Assembly: GCA_963695555.1 (NCBI GenBank)
Contig: CAVOGR010000001.1
Location: 640,001-704,000 of the forward strand
Origin: an uncultured Gemmatimonadales bacterium
Lineage (GTDB): Bacteria > Gemmatimonadota > Gemmatimonadetes > Gemmatimonadales > GWC2-71-9
Reading direction: 5' to 3'
Length of the DNA: 64,000 nucleotides
Numbering within the stretch: position 1 is the stretch's first letter; each line of letters opens with the position of its first letter. This document shows positions 21,001-39,000 of the stretch, piece after piece. The position numbers are program-made.

Positions 21001-24000
21001 CGAGGCGCACCTTCCCGTCGACCTGGGCCAGGCGATGTGCCTCAGTCAGGTCGGAAGGGTCGTGGACGACATGGTTCTGGTAGAGCGCCTCGACGTCCGG
21101 GGCCACGATTCCGTTCGGATGTACGAGGAGTTCGACGTTCTTCGGGTCGCGGACGGCGTCCAAGAAGAGCGTCTCGGTGAACTTGGGACACCGCTGAAGG
21201 ATCCGAATGAAGGAAAAGCCGCGGTGGTGGAACCCCGCCGAGAGCGTTTGAAACAGATGCTCAGGAATCCAGTCACCGGTCTGGGCCACGAACGAGGCAT
21301 TGGTGACGCCAAGTGTTGTGGAGATCGGATTGAGGCCCGGGAGATAGGCACCCCTGGGCTGAGTATTACTGGGTTGCCCCTGCGGCGAGGTCGGCGACGT
21401 TTGGTTCTTGGTCAGGCCGTACACGCCATTGTCCAACATCAGCACGACCATGTCCGGGTTGTACCGGGTCGTGTGGATCCAGTGCCCGGCGCCGATGGAG
21501 CAGCAGTCCCCGTCACCCATGACCACAAAGACGTGGAGGTCGGGGCGACGGAGTTTCACACCCGTGGCGACGGGAAGCGCCCGGCCGTGCAGGCCGTGGA
21601 AGCCGTAGGTGTGGAGGTAGTGGGGGAAGCGGCTGGAACACCCGATGCCGGACACGAACACGGTGCGCTCGGGCGGCAGTTGCTCGGTTTCCAACAGGCG
21701 TTCGACCGCGGCGAGGACGGCGTGGTCTCCGCACCCAGGGCACCAGCGCGCCGTGGCTCCGGCATAGTCGTCCATAGTGAACGAACGATCGTCGTCCGTT
21801 CCGCACCCCAGCAGTGAGCAGCCCTCCTCGATCATGACGTGGCTCCCTTCGCCAGATGGGCGAGTATGGCCTGGTGAATCATCTTGGGCTGGAGTGGCTC
21901 GCCCGGCACGCGTGTCCAGCAGTCGACATCGACCAGCGTCGTTGCCCGGAGCAGCCAGGCCAGCTGCCCCCGGCGTCGATTCTCGTCGGTAATGAACGGA
22001 TCGTCGGGCTCGTCGCTGTAGTTGATCTCGACGGTCATGACCTTGCCGAACCGGTGGAAGATATCTTTGAGGCCGGGCTCGAGCGGCGAGAGGAAGCGGA
22101 GGTGGAGCGAGGAAACCGCGAGGCCCTCCGCTCGTGCCCGATCGACCGCTTCATTGATGGCCCCCTCGGTGCTCCCCCAGCCCACGACCAAGAGATCGCC
22201 GGCGTCATCCCCACGGACCGTGGGAGGCCGGAGCGTGCTCTGAAAGACCGCCAGCTTGCGACTGCGCATGGCGCAGCCGAGCTGGTTCACTCCGGGGCCG
22301 TAGGCGACCTTGCTCCGCTCGTCGTGGGCCAGGCCGGTGGCGGTGAACATCCCGCCGGGTTGGCCGGGAATGATCCGGCGGGAGAGCCCGGCCTCCGGAT
22401 CCCATTGGTAGGGCAGGGTGCCCTCCGGAACGGGGCTCAGGTCGACCGGAGCGGCGATCCACTCCGTGGTCACCTCCGGCCGAAGGAAGGGCTGAACCCC
22501 GGTGGCCAGGTTGGCATCCGACAGCACCATCACGAGGCAGCGGAATGCCTCGGCGATGCGCCGGGCCGTGATCATGCAGGCAAAGCACTCTTCGATGGTG
22601 GCCGGGGCGAGGACGACGTGGGGCGTGTCGCCGGGCTGCCCGAAGATGGCGGCCAGGAGATCCGATTGCTCGACCTTGGTCGGCAGTCCCGTGCTCGGCC
22701 CGCCGCGTTGCACATCCACCAAGCACGAGCGGCGTTTCGGTCATGACGGCAAGGCCAAGGAACTCGGTCTTGAGCGCCAAGCCCGGGCCGGAGGTGATGG
22801 TGAACGCCACCTTGCCCGCGTAGGAGGCTCCGATCGCAACTCCCACCGCCGCGATCTCGTCCTCGGCCTGGTGGACGACGCCGCCAAAGTCCTCGAAGAC
22901 CTCGCTCAGGTAGTGCGACGCCGAGGTGGCCGGGGTGATGGGGTACATGGCACAGAGTTCCATGCCCGCCGCGATCGCGCCCAGGCCGACGGCTTGGTTG
23001 CCGTTCATGACGACCATGGCCCTCTCGCTCTTGGCGATGGGGACCTCAACCCGGAAATCCAGGTGGTCCTCAGCCCAGCGGATTCCAGCTTCCAGGAGGG
23101 CAATGTTGGTGTCGATCACCTCCTGTGACTTCTTTCGGAACTCATTGGCGATGAGCATGCGGAGGATGTCGGCGTCCCGGCCATACACGCCGGCCAACAG
23201 CCCGAGCGCGAACATGTTCTTACCGCGTGCCGGGATGTCCAGGATCTTCTGGCACTCCTCTTCCATCGGCACCCGAATAAACTGGTAGGAGCGCTGCCCC
23301 AGCTCCTCCATGGCCGTCTGCCACTCCTCGCGGATCGTGGGATCCTCGTGGGTTTCCCACTGGCTCTCGATCAGGATGATGGCGTCCTCGGCCAAGGCGT
23401 CGAGGCGATGGCGGGACAGCAACACCTGCTCGTTGAATGCCACCACTACGTTGGCGGCGTCACCCCAGTTGGTAACCGGCTCGGTGCCGATACGGATACG
23501 GTTGCCGCTCGCGCTGCCGGGCGTGCGGGCCGGCGGCTGGATTTCGGCGGGGATGATCTCGACCGTCCACACCCCGTTCCCCATGCGGGCCGACGTGCGA
23601 CCGAACAGCTGACCGCACTTCTGTGCGCCCTCGCCCGAGTCGGAGACGATCTCGACCGTGTGCTCGGGGACCCGGATCTGGGTCGGGGGTCCTTCGAGAA
23701 CGATGGCGGTCGCGGAGTCGACAGGGTTGGAGGCGGAGGAGTTCATGGGTGTTCCGGTGCCAAAGTCGTGGATGGGTGGCCAGGTCAGGTCCCGGGCCAC
23801 ACACATTCTAGCTCGTGGAAGGCCCCAGTCGCAGTGACGCTCAACCACGTGTGAAGGCCCGGCCTGCTACCAGGTTCATGAAGCCGGGTAAATCCTTACG
23901 AATCTTAAACTAAGGCCAGCAATAATGGCATAAGAAACCATGAAGGAATCTTCATTGTTGGCTCAAACAGGCCCCGCCGGGCGTGCCGCCAGTCGCAGCC

Positions 24001-36000: not shown

Positions 36001-39000
36001 AGGGCCATGGCGAGACCCCACAGGGCGGTGTGGCCGGCCGATGGATCCCAGGGCTGGCGCGAGGCCCTGGTTTGCCTCAGAAAGCGCGCCGCTTGGCCTA
36101 TCTGGCCGCGCCCCAGATGCTCTGCCATCCGAGCCGACCACAAGTAGCGATATCCGCCTAGGAGTTCGTCCGCTCCCTGCCCATCCAGGACCACCCGCAC
36201 ACCCGCTTCACTGGCGCGGCGGAATAGGCGGTTCTGGGCATAGATGGCGATGGTGCCGAACGGCTCATCCTGCGATTCGATGAGGTGGTCGAATTCCCGG
36301 ACCCATTCCCCCGGATCGAGGTGGATCTTACTGCTCACGGCCCCGGATGCCTTGTTGACCACATCGATCCAAGGTTCTTCGCTCACGGTGCCGGCGCCGC
36401 CGATATAGCTGAATGTGTGAATATCGAGTTGCGGGCCACCCAAATGCCGCATCGCCATGACGATGGCCGAGGAGTCGAGGCCTCCCGAGAGCATGGTGCC
36501 GACGCGAACATCGCTGCGCAGATGAAGCGAGACGCTTTCGAGGAACAGGTCCCTGAGCTCGGCTGCCGCCGCTTCGCGCGAGACGGCTCGTTCATAGTCC
36601 AGGTCCGGCATCCAATAGCAGCTGGGCTCAGTCATGCCGGGGCCGTCCGGGCGGACTTCGGCCCAATGGGCCGCCGGCATGCTCCGGATGCTCGAGAAGA
36701 GCGTCGCTTCGCCGAAATCGGTGATGCCGCGGTCTAGGTAGTCGTAGAGTCGGTGTGGGTCGACCCGGCGATCGGTGCCGGGCAGCTGCAGGAGGGCGGA
36801 TATCTCGGACGCGAAGGCGAACTCGCCGTTTCGCAGGGTGTAGTACAGGGGCTTCATGCCAAAGGGGTCGCGGGCCAGGAAGAGTCGTCGGTCGCGCCGA
36901 TCCCAAACAGCGAAGGCGAACATCCCGACCAAGCGGGGCAGGCACGCCCGGCCCCATTCGGCATAGGCGGCCAGGAGCACCTCCGTGTCCGACCGCGAGC
37001 GGAATCGATGTCCCCGCGACGACAGCTCGTCCCTCAGCTCGACGTAGTTGTAGATCTCGCCATTGAACACGATCGCATAGCGGCCGTCGGCGGTGAGCAT
37101 CGGCTGATGGCCCGCCGAAGATATATCGATGATGGCGAGGCGCCGATGGCCGAGGACGAGGGTGCCTGATGCGGATCCGGCCTCGTTCGACGCTCCCGTA
37201 CCCTCGTGTGGGAGTGAGGTGCGTCGACCGTCGCGATCGATGGTCGCCGTCGATCCCTCGCGGGGGCAGTCGACCAGGAAGCCCAGATCGTCAGGCCCCC
37301 TGTGGGCAAGCCGATCGAGCAGGCCGCGCACGGTTGCCAGCGCGACCGTCCCCTCACGATGCCCGAGGTATCCGACGATGCCGCACATAATGCGAAGAAA
37401 GTAGGGGAGGGAGGAGAGAGAGGGAGTAGGGAGTAGGGAGTAGGGAGGAGTTGGTTACGCGACCTGGGCTAGTTCCGTTGCTTCGTCGCCAGGTTACTCG
37501 TGAGGGGAGCGGAGAAGGTCGGCGGAGTCTCCTGGACGAGCAGCTGGGTCAGGACGCGCGTCGCGAGGCTGCCGACTGTCATTATCCCATCGGTGTCGAT
37601 CAGCGCGACATCGTCGCGGGGCGTGTGGTATTCGCCGTGAAGCCCGGTATGGAAGAAGAGCACCGGTATCTGCGCCATGAAGAAGCAATACTGATCGCTG
37701 GCCCCCAGTAATTGGCTGTTGTCCCCGTGGGTCGCCAGTTGGCTTGCGCCCGCATCGTTCAGCATCGTCATCCAATCGGCTGACGAGGAGGAGCCGATCG
37801 TCCAGAGCCCGTTCTGAGCGTAGCGCCCCACCATGTCCAGGTTCAGCATGGCCGCGACACTGTCCATGTTGATCGTTGGCTGGCCACAAAAATGCGTGGA
37901 ACCAACCAATCCGAGTTCTTCGGCGCCATAGGCCTGGAATAGCACCGAGCGCCGGTCTCGACCGGCCATGTTGCCGCCGGCCACGTACGTGCTCAGGGAG
38001 CGGGCGATTTCCAACAGCAGGGCCGTTCCCGATGCGTTGTCGTCGGCGCCGTTGTAGACCAGGACGGAGTCCGGTCCAACCTGGATGAATCCCACGTGAT
38101 CATAGTGGGCCCCGATGACCACCCACTGCCGGGCGAGGCTCCCGTGCCCGGGCAGGATCGCGAGCACGTTTTGCGACATCCGACCCTGCTGGAGTTGAAA
38201 GTGCTGGAGGTACCCGGGGGTACCGGGTCCGAGGCCGTAAGCCATGAAATGATCGCGCAGGTACGCCGCAGCCTGGGTCTCCTGGGAGGATCCCGCCTGG
38301 CGTCCGGCCATGCTGTCGTCGGCCAGCGCGCCGAGGTGCTCGAGCAGATTGGCTTGGCTCAGCGACGGGGAGGGAGGGGTCGGAGTGGTGTCGTCCCGAG
38401 GCGCTGCCGGGGAGCTGCAGGCGGCGAGCCCGAGGAGGGCCAGGTGAACGAATCCCTTCATTTAAGAAAGCCCTCCCAATGGGGCGGCGCGGAAGCCTTC
38501 CGCCCGAATCCTATACCTGGGGGGTCCCCTAGTCGAGCCATCGCCTCAGGGCGGCCGCCGCCAACCCCCCTCTCCCCTCCTGATTCTTCCCTTGACCGGG
38601 CCCCTGGACGGCTCTAGCTTACCGTGCTGTCGACTTTTGAGCCTTGTGTCCAGCTCGTAAAACGGAATGGTATGCCGACGATCAACCAGCTCATCCGCCG
38701 AGGCCGCCGGCCGCTCCGCGCCAAGGACAAGGCGCCGGCGCTCAAGGCCAATCCTCAGAAGCGGGGAGTATGCACTCGCGTGTACACCACTACGCCGAAG
38801 AAGCCGAACTCGGCGCTTCGCAAGGTGGCGCGCGTGCGGCTGACCAACGGGTTCGAGGTGACGGCCTACATTCCGGGAGAGGGGCACAATCTCCAGGAGC
38901 ACTCGATCGTGCTCATCCGGGGTGGCCGGGTGAAGGACCTGCCGGGGGTACGGTACCACATCATCCGGGGCACGCTCGACTCGGCCGGGGTCAACGACCG

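What a model noticed while it worked through the whole genome (the two positions that open the first line are those of the whole stretch)
23963..37388. Undescribed RiPP-like gene cluster family with YxxP...FQ...WW precursor
C1:663963-677388 holds a conserved biosynthetic cluster built around a 43-aa precursor peptide (g00624, C1:673791-673922, minus strand; ...YVAPAVKVMDEAEVLKAFQITSAGASWWG). Around it lie a PqqD-type RRE (g00625), an HPr-kinase-like P-loop protein (g00623), an unnamed ferritin-fold protein (g00622) and two DUF455 ferritin-like di-iron proteins (g00621, g00620). There are also a signal-peptidase-I-like protease (g00619), a formyltransferase (g00618), HTTM (gamma-carboxylase-like) membrane proteins with partners (g00616/17, g00612/13), a membrane FA_hydroxylase (g00626) and a glutamine-dependent asparagine-synthetase-type amidotransferase (g00627). 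There is no lasso B2 protease and no Asp/Glu in [...]
Evidence so far: Pfam/NCBIfam at relaxed cut: g00627 scores TIGR01536 422 bits (cut 267) and is below the lasso-cyclase cut (290 of 525); no Transglut_core3/B2 match at E<=0.05 in the 13 cluster genes scanned (g00613, g00615-g00626; g00612, g00614 and g00627 were not in that scan). Precursor homologues: 6 clusters, tail AFQITSAGASWW invariant. Synteny of g00618-g00627 in Gemmatimonadales, a betaproteobacterial MAG and an Acidobacteriota MAG. g00622 family: 414 representatives at E<=1e-3. g00622 model: pLDDT 88, ferritin four-helix fold, best matches Dps-like PA4880 Z 16.5 and aldehyde-deformylating oxygenase Z 16.0. Metagenome scan with the g00622 alignment: 223 loci. 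Of the 29 kept loci >=7 kb: PqqD 25, kin [...]
(Added by a program. Inside this text positions count along the whole contig: contig position 640,001 is position 1 of the stretch shown here. "Call 12" and the like, gene names such as g00115 and contig names such as C1 are that model's own, and its searches are not shown. The text may have been shortened before it was handed on; [...] marks where a part breaks off. The agent that wrote the report below was given it as the finding of a first reader that could run no searches.)

Follow-up and report, generated by a model that had tools for sequence, protein, structure and literature searches.

The report
Trp-Trp peptide maturation cluster with iron oxygenases
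This is a real, widely conserved gene cluster that matures a tiny peptide ending in two tryptophans, combining a recently described leader-peptide processing toolkit with three ferritin-like iron proteins never before linked to peptide chemistry; its product is still unknown.

Summary
Window 23963-37388 carries a 43-aa precursor gene (33791-33922, minus strand). Around it lie a PqqD-type recognition protein, an HPr-kinase-fold kinase, three ferritin-like proteins (two DUF455 with complete di-iron ligand sets and one without), a SipW-like serine peptidase, an NTP_transf_5 protein, a formyltransferase, a glutamine-dependent asparagine-synthetase homologue, a fatty-acid-hydroxylase-type membrane enzyme and two HTTM pairs.

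The core order PqqD, precursor, kinase, Fer622, DUF455a, DUF455b, peptidase recurs in 33 of 33 full-context loci from Gemmatimonadota, Acidobacteriota, Proteobacteria and Methylomirabilia. All 51 unique precursors share [Y/F]xxPx[IVL], then FQ, then WW, at fixed spacing.

Recognition protein, HprK kinase, archaeal-type signal peptidase and NTP transferase are the defining set of the linear polyphosphorylated peptides (LPP), described in Bacillota in May 2026. This family is therefore a new variant of that lasso-related kind. It differs in its obligatory ferritin-like oxygenase trio, its short conserved Trp-Trp core and its amidotransferase.

The same scan noted this family earlier in another genome (e1-2102574). 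Product and chemistry remain unknown. Ramlibacter monticola KACC 19175 carries a version and is cultured, so the pathway can be tested.

The parts
33791..33922 (-). Precursor peptide, 43 aa. Leader carries Y15xxP18xV20. Predicted core is FQITSAGASWWG.
   Evidence: Sequence and RBS. Six database homologues. 59 homologous small ORFs in 57 of 67 loci, always next to PqqD/HprK. RNA-library contigs lie on it.
34052..34324 (-). Discrete PqqD-type RiPP recognition element (RRE)
   Evidence: PF05402 56.8 bits. Lasso B1 models score below their cut-offs. Family profile hits LppB 9x8z_B at 1.7e-8, TfuB1 at 6.2e-8 and TbiB1 at 2.6e-7. Present in 32 of 33 full-context loci.
32667..33686 (-). HprK/PEPCK-fold P-loop kinase
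   Evidence: Hpr_kinase_C 25.2 bits (<33.3) and TIGR04352 45.5 (<200). Model pLDDT 94. HprK/P 1ko7_B Z 13.8, rmsd 2.3 over 129 residues; PEPCK 1ii2_B Z 13.7 over 278. Walker A and RGH..L.D motif conserved in 44-47 of 48. Present in 33 of 33 loci.
32095..32670 (-). Fer622 (g00622): ferritin-like protein without the ExxH iron ligands; probable non-catalytic partner subunit
   Evidence: No Pfam or NCBIfam hit. No ExxH among its conserved columns. 4-nt start/stop overlaps with both neighbours. Fused to DUF455 in 20 of 27 long relatives. Present in 33 of 33 loci.
31301..32098 (-). DUF455a: ferritin-like di-iron protein
   Evidence: PF04305 106.1 bits. E55, E87, H90, E136, E169 and H172 invariant in 32 sequences. 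Model pLDDT 89.8; aldehyde-deformylating oxygenase 5ux2_B Z 15.8. Present in 33 of 33 loci.
30522..31304 (-). DUF455b: paralogous ferritin-like di-iron protein
   Evidence: PF04305 77.2 bits. E58, H93, E139, E172 and H175 invariant, E90 in >=90%, of 29 sequences. hhalign against DUF455a E 8.9e-71. Present in 33 of 33 loci.
29896..30513 (+). SipW-like (archaeal/ER-type) signal-peptidase-I homologue; probable leader peptidase
   Evidence: Its only NCBIfam hit is TIGR02228, 29.7 bits, below the cut-off of 51.85. S79, H117, D136 and D142 conserved in 36-38 of 38. Ser-His-Asp spacing is 38/25, against 39/25 in LppS S29/H68/D93. Present in 32 of 33 loci.
25967..27154 (-). NTP_transf_5 nucleotidyltransferase, counterpart of LppN and the lasso N protein
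   Evidence: PF14907 53.2 bits. A profile finds homologues in 27 of 33 full-context loci.
35364..37388 (-). Glutamine-dependent asparagine-synthetase-type amidotransferase
   Evidence: TIGR01536 422.4 bits (cut 267.1); lasso cyclase 289.7 (<525). Starts MCGIVG, so the catalytic Cys is kept. Homologue present in 29 of 33 loci.
34384..35262 (-). Membrane FA_hydroxylase-family (His-box di-iron) enzyme
   Evidence: PF04116 96.2 bits; OlsE model 88.6 (<475). Present in 21 of 33 loci. In 24 of 51 loci an unrelated ~360-aa His-rich membrane protein is present, often in the same slot.
28816..29748 (-). Fmt-like formyltransferase
   Evidence: PF00551 106.8 bits; TIGR00460 101.7 (<201.5). Present in 25 of 33 loci.
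27171..28106 (-). HTTM-domain membrane protein 2
   Evidence: PF05090 30.8 bits (cut 27.7). Present in 19 of 33 loci.
28103..28819 (-). Partner of HTTM 2: N-terminal hydrophobic segment, no known family
   Evidence: No family hit. Always paired with HTTM; present in 19 of 33 loci.
23963..24895 (-). HTTM-like membrane protein 1
   Evidence: No Pfam hit, but it clusters with HTTM 2 in the all-against-all comparison.
24892..25548 (-). Partner of HTTM-like 1
   Evidence: Same family as the other partner.
25648..25923 (-). Small conserved ORF (91 aa as listed), function unknown
   Evidence: Homologues in 12 of the 51 loci compared, besides the window. No Pfam hit.

Best explanation
This is a leader-guided ribosomal-peptide (RiPP) pathway built on the lasso/LPP chassis, with a new oxidative module added.

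Shown by sequence and synteny:
- A 39-60 aa precursor carries [Y/F]xxPx[IVL], then the invariant FQ at fixed spacing, then the invariant WW, then a variable tail of 1-12 residues.
- The precursor gene sits beside a discrete PqqD RRE and an HprK-fold kinase.
- Three translationally coupled ferritin-like genes and a SipW-like Ser/His/Asp peptidase follow.

Inferred steps:
1. The RRE binds the YxxPx[IVL] motif. This motif lies at -17 to -12 relative to Phe of FQ, the same register as in lasso leaders.
2. The kinase, helped by the RRE, phosphorylates a hydroxyl of the linear core. Thr4 is the likeliest acceptor, otherwise Ser5 or Ser/Thr9.
3. A heteromer of DUF455a, DUF455b (both with full di-iron ligand sets) and ligand-less Fer622 uses O2 to hydroxylate or cross-link the invariant F-Q...W-W core.
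4. The SipW-like peptidase removes the leader. The predicted cut is between [V/T/A](-1) and Phe1, with Leu at -3.
5. The Cys1-bearing AsnB homologue converts a carboxylate, probably the C-terminus, to an amide or nitrile. The Fmt-like enzyme caps an amine.
6. NTP_transf_5 decorates the phosphate. The membrane enzymes (FA_hydroxylase or the His-rich membrane protein, and the HTTM pairs) act late, at the membrane.

The product would be a short modified Trp-Trp peptide (core 12-27 residues) of conserved structure. Its biological role is unknown.
For: Synteny. In the 33 loci with >=8 kb on each side, HprK, Fer622, DUF455a and DUF455b are present in 33, PqqD and the peptidase in 32, and the precursor in 33. 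The loci come from Gemmatimonadota, Acidobacteriota, Beta-, Alpha- and Gammaproteobacteria and Methylomirabilia.

Precursors. Among 51 unique sequences F1 and Q2 are in 51 of 51. Y (49) or F (2) sits at -17, P at -14 in 51, I/V/L at -12 in 48 and L at -3 in 48. WW follows FQ after 7 residues in 41, 8 in 4 and 11 in 6.

Lasso rule. YxxPxL spans -17 to -12, and the kinase BsfK phosphorylates core Ser3 with help from B1 (PMC10368454, passages).

LPP precedent. Its core set is SpI-like peptidase, RRE, HprK kinase and NTP transferase. LppS cleaves only with LppB present, and LppK polyphosphorylates core Ser3 (PMC13381572, sections 6, 7 and 11).

RRE. The family profile's best solved match is LppB, 9x8z_B, at 1.7e-8.

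Kinase. Fold match to HprK/P at Z 13.8; P-loop and RGH motifs conserved.

Peptidase. The Ser/His/Asp residues are conserved in 36-38 of 38.

Ferritin-like proteins. The di-iron ligands are invariant in DUF455a and nearly so in DUF455b, and the fold is ferritin-like oxygenase. Start and stop codons overlap by 4 nt across HprK, Fer622, DUF455a and DUF455b. Of 27 long relatives of Fer622, 20 carry a DUF455 domain above the Pfam cut-off in their C-terminal half, that is, natural fusions (also L081).

AsnB. It keeps Cys1 and passes the asparagine-synthase cut-off. The [MVL]CG motif is found for 48 of 63 AsnB tblastn segments in the loci. AS-like enzymes amidate (TsrC, ScdTA) or nitrilate (PesC) RiPP C-termini (PMC13060819, section 9).

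Expression. Contigs of four RNA libraries lie on the cluster. X1 covers all 30 bins, and a 155-nt X3 contig lies on the precursor gene.
Against: - No product is known, and every chemical step is inferred.
- No hydroxyl residue of the core is invariant. Thr4 is present in 43 of 51, and Ser/Thr before WW in 39 of 51. An S3T variant of the LPP substrate was not phosphorylated.
- The cleavage site rests on analogy only. Val at -1 (19 of 51) is unusual for type I signal peptidases (my own knowledge). An alternative cut after FQxT would mimic the FET cut of LPP.
- The peptidase scores below the TIGR02228 cut-off, and the kinase below the Pfam and NCBIfam cut-offs.
- AsnB, Fmt, FA_hydroxylase and HTTM are present in only 29, 25, 21 and 19 of 33 loci, so they may be optional tailoring genes or mere neighbours.
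- Profile comparison of Fer622 with DUF455a is not significant (probability 4.8%).
- DUF455 plus Fer622-like pairs or fusions also occur without any RiPP genes, so the ferritin module is not intrinsically peptide-directed.
- RNA-library contigs do not exclude carried-over DNA.
Confidence: 0.65

Rival explanations
1. Peptide-derived cofactor or small redox molecule, in the manner of PQQ or mycofactocin. The precursor would be only a scaffold. The Trp-Trp pair would be oxidised, cross-linked and excised as a tryptophan-derived (for example quinone-type) compound used inside the cell or in the membrane.
For: The core is conserved across at least four phyla far more tightly than antibiotic RiPP cores usually are (F, Q and WW in 51 of 51). 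The cluster encodes several O2-activating enzymes. An ABC exporter family appears in only 12 of the 51 loci compared and not in the window. The residues after WW vary in length and sequence as if discarded. HTTM proteins are relatives of the vitamin-K-dependent carboxylase, a quinone-using enzyme (my own knowledge).
Against: Distribution is patchy: 33 of 401 Gemmatimonadota genomes, 17 of 147 genera, and 0 of 2 genomes of the window's own genus (the tally includes one unpublished genome, G157). No conserved partner dehydrogenase or radical-SAM enzyme appears among the recurrent families. The kinase, peptidase and NTP-transferase chassis is known from peptide products. Cys-rich tails (18 of 51) look like parts of a product.
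Confidence: 0.2
2. Ordinary LPP-type linear phosphorylated peptide. The ferritin-like, AsnB, formyltransferase, FA_hydroxylase and HTTM genes would be unrelated neighbours, for example envelope lipid or polysaccharide modification genes.
For: LPP clusters in Bacillota are embedded in polysaccharide loci rich in other enzymes. AsnB, Fmt, FAH and HTTM are not universal and change place and strand between loci. FAH resembles the ornithine-lipid hydroxylase OlsE, though at 88.6 bits it is below that model's cut-off.
Against: Fer622, DUF455a and DUF455b are in 33 of 33 full-context loci, always directly after the kinase gene, with overlapping stop and start codons, across phyla. In the supplements of the LPP paper DUF455 occurs 0 times, and Ferritin once among the 126 SSN cluster 1 members. 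The precursor core is short and conserved, unlike LPP cores.
Confidence: 0.07
3. Atypical lasso peptide. The AsnB homologue would be a macrolactam cyclase, and a protease encoded elsewhere (the genome has two B2 genes) or the SipW-like enzyme would free the N-terminus.
For: The leader register is that of lasso peptides. An AsnB homologue is usually present. The genome encodes B2 proteins on contigs C5 and C12. Burkholderiales-type loci carry only a Cys-less AsnB-like gene, and three of their cores contain a Glu.
Against: No B2 lies in the window cluster. An acidic residue occurs in only 4 of 51 cores and not in the window's. The window AsnB keeps the glutaminase Cys, passes the asparagine-synthase cut-off and fails the cyclase cut-off (289.7 < 525). 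The Cys-less L052 homologue scores only 82 bits on the cyclase model. Position -2 is K/N/S/A/E, not Thr. The genome's true lasso cluster on C5 has its own B1, B2, C, D, K, N genes and precursor, and its proteins are only about 31-33% identical over short stretches to those of the window.
Confidence: 0.03

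Closest known systems
Linear polyphosphorylated peptides (LPP) of Bacillota: LppA/B/K/S/N/D (Popov et al., Nat Commun 2026, PMC13381572)
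   Same: [quoted passage not shown] Both leaders start with YxxPx[V/I/L]. Neither has a B2 protease. LppB is the best solved match of this family's RRE profile. The Ser/His/Asp spacing of the peptidase is like that of LppS.
   Different: Here three ferritin-like proteins are obligatory (33 of 33 loci); in the LPP data set DUF455 occurs 0 times. The rest of the leader differs: VMDExEhLxx before FQ, against VLxHQxIxFET. The precursor is 39-60 aa with a conserved F-Q...W-W core instead of 35-200 aa with variable C-termini. No Ser3 is present. A glutamine-dependent AsnB homologue is usually present. An MsbA-like exporter appears in only 12 of 51 loci and not in the window. The hosts are Gram-negative phyla, whereas the paper calls LPP restricted to Bacillota.
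Kinase-bearing lasso peptide clusters (paeninodin, pseudomycoidin, BsfA; B1, B2, C, K, N, D)
   Same: The YxxPxL-type motif sits at -17 to -12. Both have a B1-type RRE, an HprK homologue acting on the linear precursor, an N nucleotidyltransferase and an asparagine-synthetase-family gene. A canonical cluster of this type lies elsewhere in the same genome.
   Different: The cluster has no B2 cysteine protease, no Thr(-2) and no Asp/Glu at core positions 7-9. Its AsnB keeps the glutaminase Cys and fails the cyclase model. It also has the ferritin-like trio and a serine peptidase.
Heteromeric ferritin-like di-iron oxygenases, such as phenylacetyl-CoA epoxidase PaaA/PaaC and aldehyde-deformylating oxygenase
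   Same: The DUF455a model matches ADO-type proteins (Z 15.8) and PaaC (Z 13.1). A catalytic di-iron subunit combined with a ligand-less ferritin-like partner recalls PaaA/PaaC (my own knowledge of that system).
   Different: There is no sequence-level membership. The Z values lie in the range the tool itself calls common for helical bundles. The substrate here is presumed to be a peptide, which is unprecedented for this fold family as far as my searches show.
AS-like RiPP tailoring enzymes TsrC, ScdTA (C-terminal amidation) and PesC (C-terminal nitrile)
   Same: All are asparagine-synthetase homologues with an active glutaminase domain encoded in a RiPP cluster.
   Different: Relatedness to these enzymes was not tested here. 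The target carboxylate is unknown.

Membership tests
LPP (linear polyphosphorylated peptides) | SpI-like archaeal-type signal peptidase I as leader peptidase | tested here: met
   The only NCBIfam hit is TIGR02228, at 29.7 bits, below its cut-off of 51.85. Ser, His and two Asp are conserved in 36-38 of 38, with LppS-like spacing. Caveat: the score is below the cut-off.
LPP (linear polyphosphorylated peptides) | Discrete RRE next to the precursor | tested here: met
   PF05402 56.8 bits. The family profile hits LppB 9x8z_B at 1.7e-8.
LPP (linear polyphosphorylated peptides) | HprK-like kinase | tested here: met
   Fold Z 13.8 to HprK/P; conserved P-loop and RGH..L.D motif. Sequence models score below their cut-offs.
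LPP (linear polyphosphorylated peptides) | Uncharacterised NTP transferase (PF14907) | tested here: met
   Window 25967-27154 scores 53.2 bits (cut 31.2). Present in 27 of 33 loci.
LPP (linear polyphosphorylated peptides) | MsbA-like export pump in the core set | tested here: not met
   None lies between the housekeeping flanks of the window cluster. An ABC-type family is present in 12 of the 51 loci compared.
LPP (linear polyphosphorylated peptides) | Leader consensus YxxPxVLxHQxIxFETxxS, with cleavage after T(-1) and Ser3 as acceptor | tested here: not met
   Only YxxPx[IVL] is shared. The remainder reads xV[ML][DTSN]Ex[ED]hLxxFQ, and core position 3 is I/V/M/L in 51 of 51.
LPP (linear polyphosphorylated peptides) | Polyphosphorylated linear product | not testable with these tools
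   Needs mass spectrometry.
Lasso peptides | B2 cysteine protease (Transglut_core3, PF13471) in the cluster | tested here: not met
   No hit among the 15 cluster proteins or in the small ORF at 25648-25923. The genome's two PF13471 genes are on contigs C5 and C12.
Lasso peptides | Macrolactam cyclase (C protein) | tested here: not met
   NF033535 289.7 bits against a cut-off of 525, and NF033561 52.5 against 300. The protein passes the asparagine-synthase equivalog instead and keeps Cys1.
Lasso peptides | Asp/Glu at core position 7-9 for the isopeptide ring | tested here: not met
   The window core FQITSAGASWWG has no acidic residue. Only 4 of 51 cores contain any D/E.
Lasso peptides | YxxPxL at -17 to -12 of the leader | tested here: met
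   Y/F at -17, P at -14 and I/V/L at -12, counted from the invariant Phe. This holds only if the cut is before Phe, which is an inference.
Lasso peptides | Thr (rarely Ile/Val) at -2 | tested here: not met
   The commonest residues at -2 are K, N, S, A and E.
Radical-SAM peptide-derived cofactors (PQQ, mycofactocin) | Radical SAM enzyme partnered with the PqqD-type RRE | tested here: not met
   No Radical_SAM hit among the cluster proteins or among the recurrent families of the loci.
DUF455 (PF04305) ferritin-like di-iron proteins | Pfam gathering score and the E...ExxH...E...ExxH ligand set | tested here: met
   77.2 and 106.1 bits (cut 34.3). Ligands conserved. Fer622 itself does not match the model.

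The most novel reading that the evidence does not exclude
This is the first RiPP class whose defining modification is made by a heteromeric ferritin-like di-iron oxygenase: two DUF455 subunits plus a ligand-less ferritin-like partner. The enzyme would hydroxylate or cross-link an invariant Phe/Gln...Trp-Trp core. That would give DUF455 its first function. It would also show that the LPP/lasso leader-processing chassis (RRE, HprK kinase, SipW-like peptidase) has spread well beyond Bacillota into Gemmatimonadota, Acidobacteriota, Proteobacteria and Methylomirabilia, carrying a new enzymatic payload.
Probability: 0.5. Interest if true: 0.8.

Novelty: new variant of a known kind. Interest (0 to 1): 0.7.

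Why it matters
- DUF455 and the Fer622 family have no known function; Fer622 alone has 417 representatives. A peptide substrate encoded next to them makes their chemistry directly testable.
- Ferritin-like di-iron enzymes would be a new enzyme class for ribosomal peptide modification, alongside radical SAM enzymes, P450s, MNIOs and 2OG oxygenases.
- The find extends the month-old LPP concept, an RRE-dependent signal-peptidase-like leader peptidase, to Gram-negative soil and sediment phyla. It suggests this chassis is modular.
- The tight conservation of the core across phyla points to a defined physiological role (signal, metal binding or redox) rather than an arms-race antibiotic.
- A cultured carrier, Ramlibacter monticola KACC 19175 (L052), makes experiments feasible.

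Tried and rejected
- **Complex prediction** of DUF455a + DUF455b + Fer622, with Fer622 as the partner in question. The verdict was 'no answer'. Scores were 0.52, 0.50 and 0.50. Controls with the partner replaced gave 0.00 and 0.00. The control with chain 1 replaced gave 0.91, so the score is not specific to the trio as submitted. I draw nothing from it. Three earlier submissions were not accepted because the queue was full.
- **PDB sequence hit** of DUF455a to Crov588 (E 5.8e-12). It is an artefact of 15 weak repeats of one short segment against a leucine-rich-repeat protein.
- **Foldseek on DUF455a** gave no match at E<=0.001. VIA-align gave only general ferritin-fold neighbours, so no specific reaction can be read from the fold.
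- **Fer622 profile against the PDB** gave nothing meaningful. Fer622 against DUF455a by hhalign gave probability 4.8%.
- **The window's peptidase alone against the PDB** gave no hit. The window's PqqD alone against the PDB gave only E>0.2; the family profile was needed.
- **Promoter and terminator scan** of 33500-37700 found 0 promoter-like sites and 1 terminator-like site, against 2.2 expected from shuffles.
- **Distant Rokubacteria/Methylomirabilia loci** L069-L075 (about 30% identity) hold DUF455 plus Fer622-like pairs among apparent housekeeping ORFs, without PqqD, kinase or precursor. This rests on my rough ORF calling, without family scans. They say nothing about the peptide pathway.
- **My first guess of a cleavage site** after T-S-A was dropped in favour of the site before Phe, once the lasso and LPP registers were read.
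- **Literature searches without a relevant hit**: DUF455 + RiPP; HPr kinase / ferritin-like / RiPP / RRE; HTTM + RiPP + precursor peptide; diiron + RiPP + tryptophan + leader peptide; PqqD / ferritin-like / precursor peptide / asparagine synthetase; 'HprK-related kinase'. The search ferritin-like / RiPP / lasso / signal peptidase found the LPP paper but nothing on this family. The library holds open-access papers and bioRxiv only.
- **RNA runs**: in X2, X3 and X4 only 21, 13 and 15 of 30 bins had any depth. Uncovered parts mean nothing.
- **Scan notebook**: look-ups by place and by words returned nothing.

Full report
**1. What is in the sequence**

Between a 2-oxoacid:ferredoxin oxidoreductase locus on the left and an M28 peptidase, rpsG and fusA on the right, the window holds sixteen genes at 23963-37388. 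Fifteen are on the minus strand and one, the peptidase gene, is on the plus strand.

Pfam and NCBIfam give the following, with curated cut-offs in brackets:
- Asparagine synthetase type amidotransferase: TIGR01536 422.4 bits (267.1); lasso cyclase NF033535 289.7 (525).
- FA_hydroxylase: 96.2 bits.
- PqqD: 56.8 bits.
- HPr-kinase-like P-loop protein: Hpr_kinase_C 25.2 (<33.3); TIGR04352 45.5 (<200).
- Two DUF455 proteins: 106.1 and 77.2 bits (34.3).
- A protein whose only hit is archaeal-type signal peptidase I: TIGR02228 29.7 (<51.85).
- Formyltransferase: 106.8 bits.
- HTTM protein: 30.8 bits (27.7).
- NTP_transf_5: 53.2 bits (31.2).

Six of the 15 proteins scanned match nothing: the second HTTM-like protein, both HTTM partners, the peptidase in Pfam, Fer622 (g00622) and the precursor.

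The precursor (33791-33922, minus strand) reads MAEQKMQSESTRRRYVAPAVKVMDEAEVLKAFQITSAGASWWG and has a GGAG upstream. The stop and start codons of the kinase, Fer622, DUF455a and DUF455b genes overlap by four bases.

**2. The cluster is a conserved family**

Fer622 has 280 relatives in the 90%-clustered collection.

A scan of one genome per species with the Fer622 alignment returned 74 loci. Sixty-seven are close relatives (L002-L068). By their record titles they come from Gemmatimonadota, Acidobacteriota (including Thermoanaerobaculia and Vicinamibacteria), Burkholderiales and other Betaproteobacteria, Alpha- and Gammaproteobacteria, and Methylomirabilia. One is a cultured strain, Ramlibacter monticola KACC 19175 (L052).

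In the 33 loci with at least 8 kb on both sides, tblastn with the window's proteins finds:

| Gene | Loci of 33 |
|---|---|
| Kinase | 33 |
| Fer622 | 33 |
| DUF455a | 33 |
| DUF455b | 33 |
| PqqD | 32 |
| Peptidase | 32 |
| AsnB | 29 |
| Formyltransferase | 25 |
| FA_hydroxylase | 21 |
| HTTM | 19 |
| HTTM partner | 19 |

A profile built from seven NTP_transf_5 proteins finds that gene in 27 of 33.

I also ran an all-against-all clustering of ORFs in the 51 loci of at least 9 kb plus the window, which does not start from the window's gene list. It recovers the same families and adds three more:
- a roughly 360-aa polytopic, His-rich membrane protein in 24 loci, not in the window, often sitting where FA_hydroxylase sits elsewhere;
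- a 73-91-aa protein in 12 loci plus the window (25648-25923);
- an ABC-type family in 12 loci.

Within Gemmatimonadota the marker is patchy: 33 of 401 genomes, 17 of 147 genera, and 0 of 2 genomes of the window's own genus. This tally includes one unpublished genome, G157, as a count only.

**3. The precursor family**

A profile of the six database homologues finds 59 small ORFs in 57 of the 67 close loci, and in 33 of 33 full-context loci. The ten loci without one include contigs that begin inside the kinase gene.

The 51 unique sequences obey one pattern. Counting from the invariant Phe-Gln:
- Tyr (49) or Phe (2) at -17
- Pro at -14 (51)
- Ile/Val/Leu at -12 (48)
- Val at -10 (39)
- Met/Leu at -9 (48)
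- Glu at -7 (45)
- Glu/Asp at -5 (46)
- Leu at -3 (48)
- Val/Thr/Ala at -1 (47)
- then F (51), Q (51), an aliphatic residue (51) and Thr (43)

An invariant Trp-Trp follows FQ after 7 residues in 41, 8 in 4 and 11 in 6. A tail of 1-12 residues, never none, comes last. Eighteen tails contain Cys. Only 4 of 51 cores hold any Asp or Glu, and the window's holds none.

**4.

The lasso literature states that YxxPxL 'always' spans -17 to -12 of the leader. It also reports that an HprK homologue (BsfK) phosphorylates core Ser3 with the help of the B1 RRE (PMC10368454, passages read). HprK homologues and nucleotidyltransferases are known lasso tailoring enzymes (PMC8498205, passages).

More to the point is Popov et al. 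(Nat Commun, May 2026, PMC13381572). I read sections 6, 7, 11 and 35, searched passages and searched the supplements. They define the linear polyphosphorylated peptides (LPP) of Bacillota by exactly this set:
- an archaeal-type SipW-like signal peptidase, LppS, with catalytic S29, H68 and D93;
- a discrete RRE, LppB;
- an HprK-like kinase, LppK, which polyphosphorylates core Ser3;
- an NTP transferase, LppN;
- an MsbA-like pump.

The LPP leader reads YxxPxVLxHQxIxFET and is cut after T(-1), and only when LppB is present.

In the present family the peptidase keeps Ser, His and two Asp in 36-38 of 38 sequences. The spacing is 38 and 25 residues, against 39 and 25 in LppS. The kinase model (pLDDT 94) superposes on HprK/P (1ko7_B, Z 13.8, rmsd 2.3 over 129 residues) and, over both domains, on PEP carboxykinase (Z 13.7 over 278). 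The next unrelated chains score 6.5 or lower. The P-loop and the RGH..L.D motif are conserved. The profile of this family's PqqD proteins finds LppB (9x8z_B, E 1.7e-8) just ahead of the lasso RREs TfuB1 (6.2e-8) and TbiB1 (2.6e-7), and ahead of PbaB1 (2e-5).

The chassis is thus that of LPP and lasso peptides.

**5. Why it is neither an LPP in the strict sense nor a lasso peptide**

Against LPP membership:
- The leader beyond YxxPx[IVL] differs.
- Core position 3 is never Ser.
- The precursor is short and its core is conserved.
- There is no exporter in the window.
- The hosts are Gram-negative phyla, whereas the paper calls LPP restricted to Bacillota.
- The paper's supplements contain DUF455 0 times, and Ferritin once among 126 clusters. 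They do list some Acidobacteriota peptidases with 'other' RREs in SSN cluster 3, which the authors did not analyse and which I could not compare.

Against lasso membership:
- No B2 protease lies in the cluster.
- No acidic ring residue is present.
- Position -2 is not Thr.
- The AsnB homologue starts MCGIVG and so keeps the glutaminase nucleophile. It passes the asparagine synthase model and fails both cyclase models.

The same genome carries a canonical kinase-type lasso cluster on contig C5. It has HprK, PqqD, Transglut_core3, an AsnB-like gene without an N-terminal Cys, ABC and NTP_transf_5, plus a precursor ending in Ser. A B1-B2-N set lies on C12. The C5 proteins are only 31-33% identical to the window's over short stretches. 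The two systems are therefore separate. This mirrors the coexistence described for LPP and paeninodin clusters.

**6. The new module**

DUF455a has E55, E87, H90, E136, E169 and H172 invariant in 32 sequences. DUF455b has the same set: E58, H93, E139, E172 and H175 invariant, and E90 in at least 90%, of 29 sequences. The two are paralogues (hhalign E 8.9e-71).

The DUF455a model (pLDDT 89.8) is a ferritin-like bundle. Its nearest neighbours are aldehyde-deformylating-oxygenase-type proteins (Z 15.8) and Dps-like PA4880 (15.7), with PaaC at 13.1. The tool warns that such values are common for helical bundles.

Fer622 lacks ExxH, and its profile similarity to DUF455a is not significant. However, natural fusions exist. 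I tested 27 long representatives (394-599 aa) that match Fer622 in their N-terminal part. Of these, 20 have a DUF455 domain above the Pfam cut-off in the C-terminal half, 2 have sub-threshold hits and 5 have none. Two such single ORFs were also read directly (L081 3398-4858 and L080 7030-8412).

Taken together with the overlapping stop and start codons, these fusions make a physical complex of Fer622 with DUF455 proteins the most economical reading. It would be analogous to catalytic plus structural ferritin-like subunits such as PaaA/PaaC; that analogy is from my own knowledge. This is an inference. The complex-prediction job gave no usable verdict (see Tried and rejected).

**7. How it most likely works**

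Shown: the gene set, its conservation, the catalytic residues and the precursor pattern.

Inferred by analogy with lasso and LPP work:
- the RRE binds YxxPx[IVL];
- the kinase acts on the RRE-bound linear precursor;
- the SipW-like peptidase removes the leader in an RRE-dependent way.

I place the cut before Phe1 for two reasons. That keeps the lasso register (Y at -17; LPP has Y at -16). It also puts Leu at -3 and Val/Thr/Ala at -1, comparable with F(-3) and T(-1) of LPP.

Inferred from enzyme families:
- the di-iron trio oxidises the only invariant core residues (F1, Q2, W10, W11);
- the fixed 7-residue spacer hints at a ring of defined size;
- the Cys1 AsnB homologue amidates or nitrilates a carboxylate, as TsrC, ScdTA and PesC do (PMC13060819, abstract, passages and section 9);
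- the Fmt-like enzyme formylates an amine;
- NTP_transf_5 modifies the phosphate, as in pseudomycoidin;
- the membrane enzymes act last.

None of these chemical steps is shown.

**8. Expression**

One RNA library (X1) holds 0.83 of the sampled words of 32000-35400. Its contigs cover all 30 bins of 30400-37500, and 31 of the 41 pieces are at least 99% alike. One is a 1260-nt piece from the kinase gene into the precursor gene. In X3 a 155-nt contig lies exactly on the precursor gene. This is compatible with transcription. The tool notes that DNA can be present in RNA libraries and that contigs show neither strand nor level.

**9. Rivals**

- A peptide-derived cofactor (0.2) fits the extreme conservation and the rarity of exporters. 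It does not fit the patchy distribution or the peptide-product chassis.
- A plain LPP with unrelated neighbours (0.07) fails on the 33 of 33 linkage and the coupling of the ferritin genes to the kinase gene.
- An atypical lasso peptide (0.03) fails four tested defining features.

**10. Novelty and verdict**

Seven full-text searches found no description of a DUF455 or ferritin-like RiPP or of the FQ...WW precursor. The library holds open-access papers and bioRxiv only.

I rate this a new variant of a known kind, with interest 0.7.

Noticed in passing
L078 (G000 contig C5, 342000-358000), genes at locus 6249-13114: A canonical kinase-type lasso cluster elsewhere in the same genome. It comprises an HprK-like gene, PqqD (B1), Transglut_core3 (B2), an AsnB-like cyclase without an N-terminal Cys, an ABC exporter and NTP_transf_5. 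A small ORF near 6081 carries WxxPxM, Thr at -2 and Asp at core position 8, and ends in Ser.
   Followed up: partly
L079 (G000 contig C12, 66000-82000), locus 5859-10284: A second PqqD + Transglut_core3 + unknown 382-aa protein + NTP_transf_5 set lies next to a radical-SAM-like gene. No precursor was identified.
   Followed up: partly
window 21832-23848, minus strand: The 2-oxoacid:ferredoxin oxidoreductase alpha/gamma gene appears split. ORFs 22205-23848 (POR and the start of POR_N) and 21832-22722 (the rest of POR_N and PFOR_II) overlap by about 500 bases in different frames. This suggests a frameshift or an assembly error.
   Followed up: no
P0179, P0191, P0229, P0239 and others; L081 3398-4858; L080 7030-8412: There is a wide family of single proteins of about 400-550 aa with an N-terminal Fer622-like domain and a C-terminal DUF455 domain (20 of 27 tested). 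In L080 and L081 the window's cluster proteins find no RRE, kinase or precursor nearby. Their function is unknown.
   Followed up: partly
L039, L044, L046, L052 (Burkholderiales), L065 (Alphaproteobacteria), L041 (Thermoanaerobaculia): A subtype with a third DUF455 copy between precursor and kinase and an 11-residue spacer before WW. Tails are Cys-rich, an ABC exporter is present, and the Burkholderiales loci have only a Cys-less AsnB-like gene. The cultured Ramlibacter monticola KACC 19175 belongs to it.
   Followed up: partly
L026 12115-13203, L032 12135-13241, L045 12538-13641 and 21 further loci: A polytopic membrane protein of about 360 aa with conserved His motifs and no Pfam or NCBIfam hit. 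It often sits between DUF455b and the peptidase gene, where FA_hydroxylase sits in other loci. It may be a functional replacement.
   Followed up: partly
L034 and L036: Each of these two Acidobacteria loci carries two precursor copies, about 6-8 kb apart. The second has its own PqqD and peptidase genes.
   Followed up: no
L032 7484-8188 and L060 5720-6382: An Asp/Asn beta-hydroxylase-family (PF05118) gene lies inside two of the clusters, as a further optional oxygenase.
   Followed up: no
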